Under the pieces are notes generated by a model, which did no database searches, was not told the DNA's origin, and saw only the letters and a program-made list of their open reading frames with translations. Below, piece after piece: positions 53,883 through 58,678 of a stretch of DNA of 64,000 nucleotides. The stretch is from Escherichia coli phage phiS, in the sequence record PP449093.1, one strand, 5' to 3'. A program made the position numbers and the translations under genes. Every line of letters begins with the position of its first letter. The stretch's first letter is position 1.

Positions 53883-53915
53883 AGCCAATCCTAAAGGGTT
53901 GGCTTTTTCTTTTTA
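53883..53915 (+). terminator. rho-independent terminator
   Basis: agccaa...ttggct hairpin followed by ttttt c ttttt. Confidence 0.6.
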
Positions 53916-53958
53916 TTGTGATATGATGACAAAACTTAACAACATGGAGATTGACATT

Positions 53959-54486
53959 ATGATTAAAAGATATTGTGACGACCATCCGGTGGAAGAGTGG
54001 AAAGTGATTGAGGATCTTTATCCGTTAACTCATTTTGAGATTAGCTCTCATGGTCGAGTTAGAAATTCTATTACCGGAAAATATTTGTCTATTGTTGAAA
54101 CGAAAGATTATACTAAAGTTTCTTTTAAGCATCGTCCTAGTAAAACGCATAAAACTTTAAACATGCATAGGATGATGGCTGTTGCGTTTATTCCTAATCC
54201 TAATAATTATCGTGTAGTTAACCATAAGGATGGAAACAAGAGAAATTTTGACCTGTACAATCTTGAATGGACTACAGACACGCGAAATCTTGCTCATGCA
54301 AAGGAAGAAGGGTTAAACAAAAATTGGGGAGAGAACCACGGAAACGCAAAACTAACAGATAAGCAAGTGAAAGAGATTTTAGCTTCTCCACATATGAAAG
54401 GTGTAGAGCTTGCAAGAAAATATAATGTTACCCCTGCCACAATTAGCCGTGTCCGAAATGGTAAAGTCCGTAACGTCAAATACTAA
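53959..54486 (+). CDS. HNH homing endonuclease with NUMOD4-like N-terminus and C-terminal HTH
   Basis: HFEISSHGRVRN, NHKDGNKRNF..NLEW HNH core, C-terminal helix-turn-helix; ATG at 53959 follows the terminator (track start lies inside it). Confidence 0.7.
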   Translation: MIKRYCDDHPVEEWKVIEDLYPLTHFEISSHGRVRNSITGKYLSIVETKDYTKVSFKHRPSKTHKTLNMHRMMAVAFIPNPNNYRVVNHKDGNKRNFDLYNLEWTTDTRNLAHAKEEGLNKNWGENHGNAKLTDKQVKEILASPHMKGVELARKYNVTPATISRVRNGKVRNVKY

Positions 54487-55219: not shown

Positions 55220-55414
55220 ATGCAAGTTTATACCAATAGCAATAAAGGACAAGATATTACGCCCGGAAAGATGTATGATTTTACCCCGGCACGAGACGAC
55301 GAAAATCCACCGACAATCGGGTATATTGAAGATGATGCGGGGTTTCGTATTACAATACTTCTTAAGGATGGATGTTTTCATCTTCGCGGTGATCGTTGGG
55401 AGTTAGTACCATGA
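55220..55414 (+). CDS. small protein, tandem paralog family member A
   Basis: Shares motif with 55411..55656 and 55716..56051. Confidence 0.45.
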   Translation: MQVYTNSNKGQDITPGKMYDFTPARDDENPPTIGYIEDDAGFRITILLKDGCFHLRGDRWELVP

Positions 55415-55656
55415 TGTATGTGATGACACCTTATAGTAACCGCAAGTATATTACACCTAATACACTGTATGAATATACACCACATGAAAGATTTTCGAAT
55501 AGTGGTTATATCCGTGATGATAAGGGACACCAGATTTTTATTTGTCTTAAAAATTGTGCACACTTAGACGGTCGAACCTGGACACTGGTCGAAGAACCAA
55601 AACAACATGAGAATAAAGGTCTTTGGAATGTGCTAAAAAAATTCTTGAAAAAGTAG
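55411..55656 (+). CDS. small protein, tandem paralog family member B
   Basis: ATGA overlap with A. Confidence 0.45.
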   Translation: MMYVMTPYSNRKYITPNTLYEYTPHERFSNSGYIRDDKGHQIFICLKNCAHLDGRTWTLVEEPKQHENKGLWNVLKKFLKK

Positions 55657-55687
55657 TTGACAGCATGAAACGGGGGGGTAGTAATAT
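55657..55687 (+). promoter_or_regulatory. early promoter cassette P6 (TTGACA-19-TAATAT)
   Basis: Same cassette as P2 with two extra G in spacer; conserved leader. Confidence 0.45.
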
Positions 55688-55715
55688 ACCCCCATCGAAA
55701 CAAAGGAGTATTAAA

Positions 55716-56051
55716 ATGAGTGTTAAAGAAGTGTTTGTTTATACCGACTATGACGGGTGCGCCTATCTCACTGCTGGAAAACTTTACCGTTGTGAGATTA
55801 TTCATGGTACGCTAGGTCGAATTATGTGCGATCCGATTACAAAATTGTGGAAAAATAATCCTAGTGAGCGAGAAACTCTTATTAACCTAGATCCAGACGG
55901 TTGTTCACATTTGGACTATAGAAAATGGCATATAGTTACACATGATGCTTATGGTATTCATCTTGCTACTAAAGAATTAACTATTGACAAGTTCAAGTTT
56001 AAAGAAATCCCGTTTGTATACTGGCTTCGCAATTTGTTTAAGAAAGGATAA
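55716..56051 (+). CDS. small protein, tandem paralog family member C (111 aa)
   Basis: Weaker similarity to A and B (LT.GKLY, HLD.R.W). Confidence 0.45.
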   Translation: MSVKEVFVYTDYDGCAYLTAGKLYRCEIIHGTLGRIMCDPITKLWKNNPSERETLINLDPDGCSHLDYRKWHIVTHDAYGIHLATKELTIDKFKFKEIPFVYWLRNLFKKG

Positions 56052-56055
56052 TAAA

Positions 56056-56478
56056 ATGGAAACAATTAACGTACATGTTCGCCGTAGTAAGCTGCGTAGA
56101 TTCTTCGAAACCGAAATGCGCAAAACCAATGCGCAGATCAAAGAAAAGTGCTTGAATGATGGTTACGGTGAGTATATTTTCATTCGCTTTAGTCCGCATA
56201 TGATCGACCGTCTAACCGATCGTCATATCGATGAACATAAGACAATGGAACTATTCAATAAGATAGAAACTCGTTTGCCGGAGATCTTCGACTTCCTGAA
56301 AATGGAAGACCGTCCGAATCGATTAGAAATTACTGACGGTAACATGTGGATCGGGATGACAGTAGATCTAATCGAAGACGGCAAGCCATATCACGGTCTA
56401 TGCTGCCGAATGATTATAGAGAATCCAAAACGACTGGCGGGTAAAATGTCGGCGGTTGTTTTGAAGGTAGACCAATAA
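56056..56478 (+). CDS. hypothetical protein (140 aa)
   Basis: ATG at 56056 with AAAGGA RBS. Confidence 0.45.
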   Translation: METINVHVRRSKLRRFFETEMRKTNAQIKEKCLNDGYGEYIFIRFSPHMIDRLTDRHIDEHKTMELFNKIETRLPEIFDFLKMEDRPNRLEITDGNMWIGMTVDLIEDGKPYHGLCCRMIIENPKRLAGKMSAVVLKVDQ

Positions 56479-56501
56479 TGGAAATTGGTTAAAAATAATG
56501 C

Positions 56502-56530
56502 TTGACTTTCTGGTGATAGGGCTATATTAT
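56502..56530 (+). promoter_or_regulatory. sigma70-type promoter (TTGACT-17-TATTAT)
   Basis: Hexamers 35 nt upstream of the 56565 ATG. Confidence 0.4.
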
Positions 56531-56564
56531 GGAATCAGAAAGTTAAGCCAAACAGGAGAAATTA

Positions 56565-57155
56565 ATGTTAAAAGTTCTAAAAGCGATAGTATTGAGTCTG
56601 TCACTAGCCGTTGGTGCTACACACGCATCGACTAGCGCACCGATCAAAAAAGCGCCGATAGACAACTTTACAGCACACCAACTAGATAATTTACATTTCG
56701 CCTATCAATACGGCGAGCAATTCGAGAAAAGCGGTAAGTTGAAAAAGTACCATCCGAATATTCGCTATAACGGAAAGGGTTTAGGTCACATCCTGGCGGG
56801 TATCGCATGGCAAGAATCAAGCGCGGGTGCAAACTTAGCACCAAAGAAAAATCATCATGCTTATGGATTATTTCAAAATTACCTTAAAACGGTGAAAGCG
56901 AAAAATGCAAAGCGCGGTGTTAAAATGAGTGATCGCCAGACTATCAACTTTATCATGAATCGCGAGGTTTCTGCATTCTACGCGATGGATGAGTTAGCAT
57001 ACTGGCTGGATGTTCGAAACGGTAATATCCGACTCGCGCTAGCTTCTTACAATGCAGGGTGGAACTATAAAGCCGGGTTAGGTTATGCTGATGACGTACT
57101 AAAAAAGGCTAACCATCTAAAGAGTAAAGGCATTCTTAAGACTAAACGCTATTGA
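56565..57155 (+). CDS. secreted lytic transglycosylase (SLT domain) with signal peptide
   Basis: N-terminal signal peptide; SLT motifs AWQESS, YGLFQ, ASYNAG. Confidence 0.7.
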   Translation: MLKVLKAIVLSLSLAVGATHASTSAPIKKAPIDNFTAHQLDNLHFAYQYGEQFEKSGKLKKYHPNIRYNGKGLGHILAGIAWQESSAGANLAPKKNHHAYGLFQNYLKTVKAKNAKRGVKMSDRQTINFIMNREVSAFYAMDELAYWLDVRNGNIRLALASYNAGWNYKAGLGYADDVLKKANHLKSKGILKTKRY

Positions 57156-57162
57156 GGAATAT

Positions 57163-57522
57163 ATGAAAAAGTTGACAATAATTGCTATGATTGCTATGAT
57201 GTTCTCGGCTGGTGCGCTTGCTAGTAATGAGCGCCCTTATCCAAAGTTTGAATACAAAGGATTTGAGATCAACAAAAAGATCATTAAAACTTTCTGTGAT
57301 GATGATAACATGTGTAGTGATTTTATCGCGCTCGAACTTGATGAAGCATACAAACAAGGTAGAGACGAAAAACGAAAAAATCGAGCATGGGATCTGAGTA
57401 TTGCCAGCTTTGCTAAAACAAAACGCAACCTGTGTGATACTGCCCCTGATAAGCAATTATGCTTTGCTTATCGCGACACACTGTTAAGCCGTTTTATGGC
57501 TGGGTTGTCGTCCCGTGACTAA
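57163..57522 (+). CDS. periplasmic protein with signal peptide and 4 Cys (119 aa)
   Basis: Signal peptide MKKLTIIAMIAMMFSAGALA; adjacent to SLT gene. Confidence 0.5.
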   Translation: MKKLTIIAMIAMMFSAGALASNERPYPKFEYKGFEINKKIIKTFCDDDNMCSDFIALELDEAYKQGRDEKRKNRAWDLSIASFAKTKRNLCDTAPDKQLCFAYRDTLLSRFMAGLSSRD

Positions 57523-57537
57523 TGAGAGGTTTATATT

Positions 57538-57993
57538 ATGATTATTGATACTGTAAAGGGCGATCTCATCGCCCTGTTTAAACAAGGAAACGGTCATTTA
57601 ATTCATGGTTGTAATTGTTTTCATACTATGGGCGCTGGTATTGCTGCAAAGATCGCGAAAGAGTTACCGCAAGCGTTAGAGATTGACAAGCAAACTTCTC
57701 GCGGTAAGGTAGAAAAGCTGGGTGGGTTTAGTGTCTGGACGCATCAAGTTAATGGTTATAACTGGTGCGGGGTGAATCTCTATACCCAATTCCGACCGGG
57801 TCCAAATGCTGAATATGGTGCTATCCTGAAAGGATTTGAGACTATCAATGATGTTTTTGAAGGTGCTATACAGCCTTTCTATATTCCTAAAATCGGTTGC
57901 GGTATCGGTGGCCTTGAGTGGGAATGTGTAGAAGAGATCATTAATATTGCTACTCCAGACATTAACATTGTGGTGGTTGAATATGACAAATAA
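57538..57993 (+). CDS. macro-domain protein (ADP-ribose binding/hydrolase fold)
   Basis: N-terminal pattern GDL...LIHGCNCF..MGAGIA and later IGCGIGG resemble the macro-domain Gly-rich loops. Confidence 0.5.
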   Translation: MIIDTVKGDLIALFKQGNGHLIHGCNCFHTMGAGIAAKIAKELPQALEIDKQTSRGKVEKLGGFSVWTHQVNGYNWCGVNLYTQFRPGPNAEYGAILKGFETINDVFEGAIQPFYIPKIGCGIGGLEWECVEEIINIATPDINIVVVEYDK

Positions 57994-58177
57994 AAATGAT
58001 CTATATTCCGGTGATTGGGTGAAACGTCAGTCTGTAGAAAACGTAACTTGTTTTCGTTGTTTCACTGAATACAATATAAAAACCGCTCCTGTTAGTGTTC
58101 CAAAGACAGACGGGTATTATATTAAAGAACCGCATTGCCCTAAATGTAAATGTCGATTATATTGGAGTCATCTATGA
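57983..58177 (+). CDS. zinc-ribbon small protein (CxxC...CxxC)
   Basis: CFRC and CPKCKC pairs; ATG at 57983 overlapping previous gene. Confidence 0.4.
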   Translation: MTNKNDLYSGDWVKRQSVENVTCFRCFTEYNIKTAPVSVPKTDGYYIKEPHCPKCKCRLYWSHL

Positions 58178-58392
58178 AGAAGCCTAATACCGCTCACATG
58201 AAAGAAAACTGCCGATGTGTTAGATGTGGTTGGCCTATTATATTCACTTGCTGTAACGACGATATGCAGCGTTTACCGTGGGGAATGTGGGATTGGTGGA
58301 TGTATTGCAGCAATAAAGGTTGCGACCATCATGAAGGTGAAGGAGTCTTTCAGGAAACACCTGATTGGGTGGAGGTGATAGAAAATGCTTGA
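58174..58392 (+). CDS. Cys/Trp-rich small protein
   Basis: CRCVRCGW, CC, C..GC; ATG at 58174 with GGAG RBS. Confidence 0.4.
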   Translation: MKKPNTAHMKENCRCVRCGWPIIFTCCNDDMQRLPWGMWDWWMYCSNKGCDHHEGEGVFQETPDWVEVIENA

Positions 58393-58678
58393 GACTATCA
58401 TTAATCTTGTTGTGTGGACTTTTATTTTCGTTATTGTTATTATGGCGGGTGTAGAGATTGTAAAACAATATCTATTGCAATCTCGAAATAAACATGTTGT
58501 CGTTGATATGGACTCGCAAGGCAATAAGTTGATCCGGTTAGAAGATGGTCGGGAATATTGGGTCGGGTATCCCAAAACTCTGAAAGGGTTTATCCTTGCC
58601 ATGAGCATTAACATCTTTTTCATTGGTATCTGGACTTATATCGGTTTAGGTCTTGTTGGATTTTTGGAGATTAATTAA
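58385..58678 (+). CDS. membrane protein (97 aa)
   Basis: Two hydrophobic helices. Confidence 0.45.
   Translation: MLETIINLVVWTFIFVIVIMAGVEIVKQYLLQSRNKHVVVDMDSQGNKLIRLEDGREYWVGYPKTLKGFILAMSINIFFIGIWTYIGLGLVGFLEIN

What the first reader, a model, noticed from the sequence alone, without database searches (positions are those of the whole stretch)
56565..57522. Signal-peptide lytic transglycosylase paired with a small periplasmic Cys-containing protein
ORF 56565..57155 has an N-terminal signal peptide and SLT motifs (ES catalytic dyad in AWQESS, GLFQ, AYNAG); the next gene (57163..57522) also has a signal peptide and four Cys. A phage-encoded periplasmic murein hydrolase with a secreted partner, expressed from its own promoter (56502-56530), could act in cell-wall remodelling or superinfection control, or form an enzyme/inhibitor pair.
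Basis: partly seen in the sequence, partly recalled or inferred. Interest (0 to 1): 0.45.

Follow-up and report, generated by a model that had tools for sequence, protein, structure and literature searches.

The report
T4-type vs.1–vs secreted gene pair
These two genes are the known phage T4 genes vs.1 (a cell-wall-cutting enzyme exported to the periplasm) and vs, but vs, which databases call a modifier of a cytoplasmic tRNA synthetase, looks in every relative like an exported partner of vs.1, so its textbook label may be wrong or incomplete.

Summary
Both ORFs are real. The window is a Krischvirus (RB49/Phi1-like T4-type phage, 99% identity), and the ORFs are the orthologues of T4 vs.1 and vs, in the conserved block regB–vs.1–vs–tk.4–tk–rI.

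Vs.1 is a GH23/SLT lysozyme-fold protein. It has a cleavable Sec-type signal peptide, an invariant catalytic Glu (WQESS) and the GLFQ and SYNAG motifs. Its SLT similarity has been published since 2003–2006.

Vs is annotated 'valyl-tRNA synthetase modifier'. Every intact homologue examined has a signal peptide, one clade has a lipoprotein lipobox, and all have four invariant Cys in a four-helix core with no known fold relative.

Vs sat directly downstream of vs.1 in most loci, usually with overlapping stop and start codons. It was never seen without vs.1, whereas vs.1 occurs alone in other phage families. Public T4 transposon data show that vs and vs.1 mutants are similarly under-represented.

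My best reading is an early-expressed periplasmic murein enzyme plus an exported accessory protein. Whether Vs inhibits or assists the enzyme is unresolved. The objects are already known, and the conflict over the vs annotation is the interesting part.

The parts
56502..56530 (+). Sigma-70-type promoter-like site TTGACT-17 nt-TATTAT in the regB–vs.1 intergenic gap
   Evidence: 10 of 12 matches. The same site is annotated as a promoter in phage GEC-3S. Prediction only.
56554..56559 (+). Shine-Dalgarno AGGAGA of vs.1, 5 nt before the ATG. It contains GGAG, the core motif cut by RegB.
   Evidence: Sequence. RegB motif taken from PMC3014915. The T4 vs.1 SD is GAGG, so the GGAG is not conserved.
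56565..57155 (+). vs.1 CDS (196 aa): exported GH23/SLT lytic-transglycosylase-like enzyme
   Evidence: annotated vs.1 in Phi1. Pfam SLT E 8e-6. PHROG 600 E 1e-59. AF2 model pLDDT 84.5, with Foldseek top hits MltD, Slt, goose-type lysozyme and GH23 chitinase.
56565..56627 (+). Predicted Sec signal peptide of Vs.1 (MLKVLKAIVLSLSLAVGATHA, cleavage THA|S)
   Evidence: heuristic. A signal-like N-terminus is present in 23 of the 24 aligned homologues; the exception (P0014) has a truncated N-terminus. This holds despite little sequence conservation in that region.
56808..56822 (+). WQESS motif. E84 (56814-56816) is the predicted catalytic Glu.
   Evidence: E84 is invariant in 24 of 24 homologues. It aligns with the AIAWNES motif of the T3SS transglycosylase EtgA.
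56865..56876 (+). GLFQ motif (G101–Q104), part of the conserved HHAYGxFQN block
   Evidence: G101, Q104 and N105 are invariant.
57045..57059 (+). SYNAG motif (S161–G165), equivalent to the AYNAG motif of family-1 transglycosylases
   Evidence: S161, Y162 and G165 are invariant.
57154..57158 (+). Shine-Dalgarno GAGGA of vs, overlapping the vs.1 stop codon (TGA 57153-57155). The intergenic gap is 7 nt.
   Evidence: In T4 the vs start overlaps the vs.1 end by 8 nt.
57163..57522 (+). vs CDS (119 aa): exported four-helix, 4-Cys protein, annotated 'valyl-tRNA synthetase modifier'
   Evidence: PHROG 1256 E 1.8e-33. Pfam PF26829 on homologues. AF2 model pLDDT 81 with helices 32-45, 49-72, 76-86 and 97-116.
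57163..57222 (+). Predicted Sec signal peptide of Vs (MKKLTIIAMIAMMFSAGALA, cleavage ALA|S)
   Evidence: A hydrophobic signal-like N-terminus is present in 54 of 55 unique locus-derived homologues and 42 of 43 database homologues. The exceptions are a frameshifted or truncated fragment. A lipobox LSGC is present in the CC31/Cronobacter-phage clade.
57295..57315 (+). First invariant Cys pair, C45 (57295-57297) and C51 (57313-57315), at the helix 1–helix 2 turn
   Evidence: Invariant in 19 of 19 homologues. Positions relative to helices. The disulfide itself is inferred.
57433..57462 (+). Second invariant Cys pair, C91 (57433-57435) and C100 (57460-57462), in the loop before helix 4 and its first turn
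   Evidence: The disulfide is inferred.

Best explanation
The two ORFs are the Krischvirus orthologues of T4 vs.1 and vs, transcribed together, probably from an early-type promoter just upstream.

Vs.1 is made as a precursor with a cleavable Sec signal peptide and released into the periplasm as a roughly 20-kDa basic GH23 (SLT family-1-like) enzyme. It uses a single catalytic Glu (E84) to cut the glycan strands of host murein, most likely as a lytic transglycosylase.

Vs is translated in tight coupling with Vs.1 and is also exported by Sec. In one clade it is exported as a lipoprotein. In the oxidising periplasm it folds into a roughly 11-kDa four-helix bundle held by two local disulfides.

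Vs acts there as an accessory of Vs.1: a binding partner that controls, stabilises or targets the enzyme. Together they modify the sacculus from early in infection and contribute measurably to phage fitness, most in minimal medium.

Shown here: gene identity, fold and motifs, conservation of the export signals, gene coupling, and the asymmetric phyletic pattern.

Inferred: actual export, disulfides, enzymatic activity, physical interaction, and whether Vs inhibits or assists. I consider the database name 'valyl-tRNA synthetase modifier' unlikely to describe what this ORF's product mainly does.
For: Identity: 99% DNA identity to RB49/Phi1-type phages, with the genes annotated vs.1 and vs. The T4 orthologues lie in the same order, regB–vs.1–vs–tk.4.

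Enzyme: Pfam SLT above its gathering score. Invariant E84, G101/Q104/N105 and S161/Y162/G165. The AF2 model matches MltD, Slt, goose-type lysozyme and GH23 chitinase. The best PDB profile hit is the T3SS transglycosylase EtgA.

Export of both proteins: T4 Vs.1 (MRKALLAGLLAISMMAHS|S) and T4 Vs (MTKILVLCIGLISFSASASA|D) also carry signal peptides. Among Vs homologues, 54 of 55 and 42 of 43 have a hydrophobic signal-like N-terminus, and one clade has the lipobox LSGC. Four Cys are invariant. Independent annotators of Acinetobacter phage Berthold marked both proteins 'putative periplasmic secretion signal'.

Coupling: vs was within 10 nt of vs.1 in 52 of the 61 vs-containing loci, out of 79 loci retrieved through Vs.1. 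This includes Acinetobacter phages that lack regB, tk.4 and tk nearby. All 7 loci retrieved through 5 divergent Vs proteins have Vs.1 directly upstream. Vs.1 occurs without Vs in Aeromonas T4-likes, Ackermannviridae and Felix-O1-like phages, so Vs depends on Vs.1 but not the reverse. The Vs family is confined to T4-type phages.

Phenotype, from the T4 HIDEN-SEQ preprint 10.1101/2025.11.20.689424, Extended Data Table 6. In liquid LB, insertion mutants have mean read counts of 26.6 (vs) and 22.6 (vs.1), against 128-770 for all neighbouring genes. From LB to M9-glucose, vs changes by log2FC -2.19 (adjusted p 0) and vs.1 by -0.87 (p 0.0055). On clinical strain CFE299, vs.1 changes by -1.20 (adjusted p 0.015) and vs by -1.04.
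Against: Decades-old T4 genetics and biochemistry (Neidhardt, Marchin and co-workers; recalled from memory, primary papers not retrievable here) define gene vs by modification of cytoplasmic ValRS in vivo. All databases attach that name to this ORF.

No SignalP run or experimental localisation was available.

Vs has no detectable similarity to known lysozyme or transglycosylase inhibitors or to T4 Spackle.

Both mature proteins are basic (pI about 9.9 and 8.3), so there is no obvious charge complementarity.

The distance-matrix correlation of Vs with Vs.1 is no higher than with unrelated neighbours (partial r 0.25, against 0.51 for vs.1–regB).

The whole regB–rI block is syntenic in T4-type phages, so adjacency alone is weak evidence.

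The parallel transposon phenotypes could simply reflect polarity of vs.1 insertions on vs.
Confidence: 0.5

Rival explanations
1. The annotation is right. Vs is the cytoplasmic tau factor that binds host valyl-tRNA synthetase. Its hydrophobic N-terminus is not, or only partly, used for export. Vs.1 is an unrelated accessory murein enzyme, and the adjacency is inherited T4-type synteny.
For: Names in all records and in Pfam PF26829 'ValRS_modifier'. The T4 vs knockout has a plaque defect specifically in minimal medium, which its authors link to amino-acid supply. The size of T4 Vs (13.1 kDa precursor, 11.0 kDa mature) is near the roughly 10 kDa I recall for the purified factor. The whole block is syntenic, and there is no co-evolution signal with Vs.1.
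Against: The signal peptide is kept in essentially every homologue despite fast sequence divergence (mean p-distance 0.58), and one clade has a lipobox that would anchor the protein outside the cytoplasm. Four invariant Cys are typical of periplasmic disulfides. Vs was never found without Vs.1. The original 1986 T4 record lists this ORF only as 'ORF 60.9', so the name was assigned later, on evidence I could not retrieve. T4 vs.3 (10.9 kDa) and vs.4 (10.2 kDa) nearby are equally close to 10 kDa.
Confidence: 0.2
2. A strict enzyme/antidote pair. Vs is a periplasmic inhibitor that keeps the secreted Vs.1 from lysing the cell prematurely, analogous to Spackle–gp5 lysozyme or Ivy–MltB.
For: An actively secreted murein enzyme made early would need restraint. 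The genes are translationally coupled. Vs depends on Vs.1 phyletically. In M9 medium, vs mutants fall lower (mean 5.0) than vs.1 mutants (11.9), as expected if losing Vs is worse while Vs.1 is present.
Against: In LB, vs.1 insertions are as unfit as vs insertions (22.6 against 26.6, with neighbours at or above 128), whereas loss of a merely dangerous enzyme should be neutral. Vs shows no fold or sequence similarity to any known inhibitor. Several phage families carry secreted Vs.1 homologues with no Vs.
Confidence: 0.2
3. Both proteins are exported but act independently. Vs.1 is an auxiliary lysis or cell-wall enzyme. Vs targets some other periplasmic or outer-membrane host component, for example in envelope stress, nutrient uptake or exclusion of other phages.
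For: Vs evolves about twice as fast as its neighbours, as host-interface proteins often do. There is no co-evolution signal. In the RB43/Karam-like group, vs is separated from vs.1 by 0.5-1.2 kb of other genes. In other phage families Vs.1 homologues lie close to spanin-like lysis genes.
Against: Vs was never seen without Vs.1, and stop/start overlap is preserved in 52 of 61 loci across very distant hosts. The two genes have parallel fitness profiles.
Confidence: 0.1

Closest known systems
Bacteriophage T4 genes vs.1 (ORF 61.4) and vs (ORF 60.9)
   Same: Orthologues: same gene order regB–vs.1–vs–tk.4, same lengths, same signal peptides, same SLT motifs and the same four Cys. PHROG 600 and PHROG 1256.
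   Different: About 48% (Vs.1) and 30% (Vs) identity to the T4 proteins. The window has a 7-nt gap with its own SD, where T4 has an 8-nt overlap. No function has been shown for Vs.1 in any phage.
Specialised family-1 (GH23, Pfam SLT) lytic transglycosylases such as EtgA, Slt70/Slt and MltD
   Same: Lysozyme-like helical fold, ES catalytic motif, GLMQ-like and AYNAG-like motifs, and periplasmic location through a signal peptide.
   Different: Very distant: PDB profile E 0.035, Foldseek E about 1e-2. It is a small single-domain phage protein with a conserved N-terminal extension (FxxxQxDNLxYAYxFGEQ). Activity and product (1,6-anhydroMurNAc versus hydrolysis) are untested.
T4 Spackle (gp61.3) – gp5 tail lysozyme; bacterial Ivy, MliC/PliC, PliG, LprI inhibitors
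   Same: Small signal-peptide periplasmic proteins that bind and control a murein-cleaving enzyme. This is a precedent for the proposed role of Vs.
   Different: No sequence or fold similarity was detected. The only such protein to appear was a DUF1311 structure (the family I recall as including LprI) at an insignificant Foldseek E of 6. Spackle acts on an incoming phage's enzyme, not on a co-encoded one.
Secreted or SAR endolysins of other phages
   Same: Murein enzymes exported by the host Sec system before lysis. Vs.1 homologues in Felix-O1-like and other phages sit near spanin genes and are annotated 'putative lysin'.
   Different: T4-type phages already have the cytoplasmic endolysin E, holin T and spanins. 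Vs.1 has a short cleavable signal peptide (12-13-residue h-region) rather than a SAR anchor, and it lies in an early-gene block.
Tau factor / ValRS modifier of T4 (classical gene vs)
   Same: The database name. The mature size of about 11 kDa is close to what I recall as the reported size of tau.
   Different: The expected location is cytoplasmic. This protein family has conserved export signals, a lipobox clade and invariant Cys pairs.

Membership tests
Pfam SLT (PF01464) / GH23 family-1 lytic transglycosylases | Significant match to the family profile | tested here: met
   25.8 bits against a gathering score of 21.3, E 8e-6, residues 76-167.
Pfam SLT (PF01464) / GH23 family-1 lytic transglycosylases | Catalytic Glu in an E-S motif at the end of a helix, conserved in relatives | tested here: met
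   E84-S85 in WQESS. E84 is invariant in 24 of 24 homologues, lies at the end of helix 74-85, and aligns with the NES motif of EtgA.
Pfam SLT (PF01464) / GH23 family-1 lytic transglycosylases | GLMQ-type and AYNAG-type motifs | tested here: met
   G101-L-F-Q104 and S161-Y-N-A-G165. G101, Q104, S161, Y162 and G165 are invariant.
Pfam SLT (PF01464) / GH23 family-1 lytic transglycosylases | Lysozyme-like alpha-helical fold | tested here: met
   AF2 pLDDT 84.5. Foldseek top hits are MltD, Slt, goose-type lysozyme and GH23 chitinase, with probability 0.94-1.0 but weak E values of 0.015-0.2.
Pfam SLT (PF01464) / GH23 family-1 lytic transglycosylases | Cleaves MurNAc-GlcNAc bonds with formation of 1,6-anhydroMurNAc | not testable with these tools
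   Needs purified protein and muropeptide analysis.
T4 Vs.1 orthologue group (PHROG 600) | Profile match and position between regB and vs | tested here: met
   PHROG 600 E 1e-59. Synteny with Phi1 and T4.
Vs family (PHROG 1256; Pfam PF26829 'ValRS_modifier') | Sequence membership | tested here: met
   PHROG 1256 E 1.8e-33. Close homologues carry PF26829. Aligns with T4 Vs, with four Cys, G66 and G114 invariant.
Vs family (PHROG 1256; Pfam PF26829 'ValRS_modifier') | Binds and modifies host valyl-tRNA synthetase | not testable with these tools
   No assay or complex prediction was available. The primary papers were not retrievable.
Vs family (PHROG 1256; Pfam PF26829 'ValRS_modifier') | Cytoplasmic location, as the named function requires | tested here: not met
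   Signal-peptide-like N-terminus in 54 of 55 and 42 of 43 homologues. Lipobox LSGC in one clade. Invariant Cys pairs. This is prediction, not experiment.
Sec (SPase I) secretory signal peptide, both proteins | Positive n-region, 10-15-residue hydrophobic h-region, small-x-small cleavage site | tested here: met
   Heuristic scoring and conservation of the property across families. SignalP was not available.
Proteinaceous lysozyme/transglycosylase inhibitors (Ivy, MliC/PliC, PliG, PliI, LprI, T4 Spackle) | Sequence or fold similarity to a known inhibitor | tested here: not met
Proteinaceous lysozyme/transglycosylase inhibitors (Ivy, MliC/PliC, PliG, PliI, LprI, T4 Spackle) | Binds and inhibits the cognate enzyme | not testable with these tools
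   Needs a complex prediction or biochemistry.

The most novel reading that the evidence does not exclude
The ORF carried in every T4-type genome as 'vs, valyl-tRNA synthetase modifier' is not, or not only, the cytoplasmic tau factor. It is an exported, disulfide-bonded periplasmic protein (a lipoprotein in some phages) that works with the early-secreted transglycosylase Vs.1 as a previously unrecognised phage murein-remodelling module. The recently reported minimal-medium defect of T4 vs mutants would then be an envelope phenotype, and the true ValRS-modifier gene, or a moonlighting mechanism, would remain to be found.
Probability: 0.4. Interest if true: 0.65.

Novelty: already known. Interest (0 to 1): 0.4.

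Why it matters
T4 is the reference for hundreds of therapeutic and environmental phages, and more than 1,000 genome records copy the label 'valyl-tRNA synthetase modifier' onto this ORF.

If the protein is really periplasmic and tied to a secreted transglycosylase, three things follow. A 50-year-old functional assignment would need revisiting. The unexplained minimal-medium phenotype of vs would get a different, testable explanation. T4-type phages would gain a third murein-active system, beside gp5 and endolysin E, that acts from inside the periplasm early in infection.

If the label is right instead, the conserved signal peptide and lipobox are themselves a puzzle about how a Sec-type precursor reaches a cytoplasmic enzyme.

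Tried and rejected
1. PDB sequence search with Vs.1 alone found only chance hits. The profile search was needed.

3. Pfam, NCBIfam and PADLOC scans of Vs found nothing beyond matches to its signal peptide.

4. hhalign of the Vs profile against the neighbouring periplasmic antiholin RI showed no relation.

5. A mirror-tree test on 43 genomes gave a Vs–Vs.1 partial r of 0.25, lower than vs.1–regB (0.51). There is no specific co-evolution signal.

6. Looking for Vs outside T4-type phages found none, both in a full scan of 1.84 billion representative proteins and in a profile search of 5.8 billion clusters. One 395-aa hit (P0041) is a spurious repeat protein.

7. The search for related loci with the Vs alignment failed because no stretch was conserved enough. 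Single-protein Vs queries only re-found known genomes.

8. I could not obtain the primary evidence for assigning gene vs to this ORF. The Miller 2003 review and Müller & Marchin 1975 are not held, and ten literature searches found no functional study of Vs.1 or of Vs localisation.

9. The idea that RegB regulates vs.1 through a GGAG in its SD does not generalise. The motif is present in the window but absent in T4.

Full report
**What is there**

The window matches RB49/Phi1/GEC-3S-type phages (genus Krischvirus, Straboviridae) at 99% identity over 56400-57600.

In the Phi1 record the two ORFs are annotated vs.1 and vs, in the order regB – vs.1 – vs – tk.4 – … – tk – rI. T4 itself has the same order.

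The promoter-like site TTGACT-17-TATTAT lies at 56502-56530, and the GEC-3S depositors annotated a promoter at the same place. It is a consensus match, not proof of function.

The vs.1 ribosome-binding site is AGGAGA. The vs ribosome-binding site (GAGGA) overlaps the vs.1 stop codon, leaving a 7-nt gap.

**Vs.1**

- Pfam SLT matches above its gathering threshold (E 8e-6). PHROG 600, a family of unknown function, matches at E 1e-59.
- In a 24-sequence alignment spanning T4, Acinetobacter, Aeromonas, Vi01-like and Felix-O1-like phages, several residues are invariant: E84 (WQESS), G101/Q104/N105 (HHAYGxFQN) and S161/Y162/G165 (SYNAG). An N-terminal signal-like segment is present in 23 of the 24 despite little sequence conservation; the exception, P0014, is truncated.
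- An AlphaFold2 model (pLDDT 84.5) finds MltD, Slt, goose-type lysozyme and a GH23 chitinase as its best PDB neighbours. Probabilities are near 1 but E values are weak, about 1e-2.
- The family profile's best PDB sequence hit is the type-III-secretion transglycosylase EtgA, at E 0.035.
- The SLT similarity of vs.1 is not new. It was reported in 2006, citing the 2003 T4 genome review (PMC1524935).
- The predicted signal peptide is MLKVLKAIVLSLSLAVGATHA|S. The mature protein is 19.8 kDa with pI 9.9.

**Vs**

- PHROG 1256 and Pfam PF26829 name it 'valyl-tRNA synthetase modifier'.
- The window protein (MKKLTIIAMIAMMFSAGALA|SNER) and T4 Vs (MTKILVLCIGLISFSASASA|DTSY) both start with textbook Sec signal peptides.
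- Among unique homologues from phage loci, 54 of 55 have a hydrophobic signal-like N-terminus; the exception is half of a frameshifted gene. Among database homologues the figure is 42 of 43; the exception is N-terminally truncated.
- The CC31/Cronobacter-phage clade has the lipoprotein lipobox L-S-G-C.
- Four Cys are invariant: C45, C51, C91 and C100.
- The AF2 model (pLDDT 81) is a four-helix bundle. The Cys pairs sit at the helix 1–2 turn and at the loop before helix 4, which suggests two local disulfides.
- No solved structure or protein family resembles it, and it is unrelated to RI.
- The family is confined to T4-type phages.
- It evolves about twice as fast as its neighbours: mean p-distance 0.58, against 0.27-0.41.

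**Linkage**

I retrieved 79 viral-contig loci through Vs.1.

- 61 also contain vs.
- In 52 of those, vs starts within 10 nt of the vs.1 stop, often overlapping it.
- The pair persists in Acinetobacter phages where regB, tk.4 and tk are not nearby. There it heads a run of genes annotated with secretion signals that ends in rI.
- In an RB43/Karam-like group, vs lies 0.5-1.2 kb downstream.

Starting instead from five divergent metagenomic Vs proteins, all seven loci had a Vs.1 gene directly upstream, with profile E values of 1e-63 to 1e-81.

Conversely, Vs.1 occurs without Vs in Aeromonas T4-likes, Ackermannviridae and Felix-O1-like phages, sometimes near spanin-like genes.

So Vs appears to depend on Vs.1 but not the reverse. 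That pattern fits an accessory factor. The caveat is that the whole block is syntenic in this phage family, and a mirror-tree test gave no specific signal.

**Experimental data from others**

A 2025 preprint (10.1101/2025.11.20.689424) mapped T4 gene fitness by transposon sequencing.

- The authors report vs as the gene most depleted in M9-glucose relative to LB, and they confirm the defect with a knockout.
- In their Extended Data Table 6, vs and vs.1 are the only genes in this region with low insertion read counts in liquid LB: 26.6 and 22.6, against 128-770 for the neighbours.
- Both fall further in M9: vs by log2FC -2.19 (adjusted p 0) and vs.1 by -0.87 (p 0.0055).
- Both also fall on a clinical strain: vs.1 by -1.20 (adjusted p 0.015) and vs by -1.04.

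These parallel profiles support a common pathway, or else polarity of vs.1 insertions on vs. They do not fit a model in which Vs.1 is merely a hazard that Vs neutralises. The lower M9 value for vs (5.0 against 11.9) does leave room for a restraining component.

The same preprint identifies the downstream macrodomain gene tk.4 as AdfM, an anti-DarTG2 factor.

**The annotation conflict**

ValRS is cytoplasmic. A protein family that always keeps a signal peptide, sometimes carries a lipobox, and has invariant Cys pairs is expected to be extracytoplasmic.

The original 1986 T4 sequence record lists these genes only as ORF 60.9 and ORF 61.4, so the name vs was attached later. I could not retrieve the evidence for that assignment.

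From memory, the purified factor was about 10 kDa. Mature T4 Vs is 11.0 kDa, but the nearby vs.3 (10.9 kDa) and vs.4 (10.2 kDa) are equally close. Size therefore cannot settle the assignment.

**Conclusion**

The most likely reading (about 0.5) is an early-expressed, Sec-exported GH23 transglycosylase with a co-exported, disulfide-bonded accessory protein acting on host murein. Whether Vs inhibits or assists is open.

The database function of vs is the main rival, at about 0.2.

The SLT enzyme itself is ordinary. The unresolved and easily testable question is whether 'vs' is mislabelled.

Noticed in passing
window 57172-57200 (+): The best promoter-like match in the region (TTGACA-17-TATGAT with an upstream TG, 11 of 12) lies inside the first 40 nt of vs. 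Transcripts from it would skip vs.1 and most of vs and would serve tk.4.
   Followed up: no
window 55220-56051 (+): Three tandem small ORFs (64, about 82 and about 111 aa) are paralogues, at 45% and 31% identity. They share invariant Y19, C52-x-H54-L55, W60 and V63, and have no Pfam family. They correspond to Phi1 ORF097, ORF096 and ORF095.
   Followed up: partly
window 57538-57993 (+): The gene after vs is the tk.4 macrodomain protein (Pfam Macro E 4.5e-6). A 2025 preprint names its T4 orthologue AdfM, an anti-DarTG2 factor.
   Followed up: partly
window 56555-56558 (+): The vs.1 Shine-Dalgarno contains GGAG followed by an A-rich stretch (GGAGAAATTAA), directly downstream of regB, whose nuclease cuts GGAG in early SD sequences (PMC3014915). 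T4 vs.1 uses GAGG instead, so this is not a conserved feature.
   Followed up: partly
window 53899-54486 (+): An HNH_3/NUMOD4 homing-endonuclease-like ORF sits just upstream of the nrdC.11-like nucleotidyltransferase (RlaP family). The Phi1 annotation shows no such gene between vs.6 and nrdC.11, so it may be a mobile insertion in this phage.
   Followed up: no
window 57947-58392 (+): Two overlapping small Cys-rich ORFs match the Pfam 'Phage zinc binding domain' families PF23903 and PF23895. The next ORF (58385-58678, 97 aa) has hydrophobic N- and C-terminal segments and no family.
   Followed up: no
L054 3871-4311, L079 4088-4528 (Aeromonas T4-type phages): These phages have Vs.1 but no Vs. 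A 146-aa predicted lipoprotein (MKKSIA…GMYGC) lies just upstream of tk.4 and could be a non-homologous replacement for Vs.
   Followed up: no
L080 2929-4227; L005 2501-4761 (Shigella phage Sf17): In phages outside the T4 group, the secreted Vs.1 homologue lies next to or near i-spanin/o-spanin-like genes, and in Sf17 it is annotated 'putative lysin'. This suggests a lysis role there.
   Followed up: no
L006 1983-3829 (Acinetobacter phage Berthold): Here vs.1 and vs head a run of five consecutive genes that the depositors all marked 'putative periplasmic secretion signal', ending with rI. It looks like a cluster of exported proteins.
   Followed up: partly
L048 3537-3864; L011 3541-3798: In two phage contigs the vs gene is split or truncated (65 + 61 aa fragments; 85 aa with only 2 Cys) while vs.1 is intact. 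These may be natural vs pseudogenes or sequencing frameshifts.
   Followed up: no
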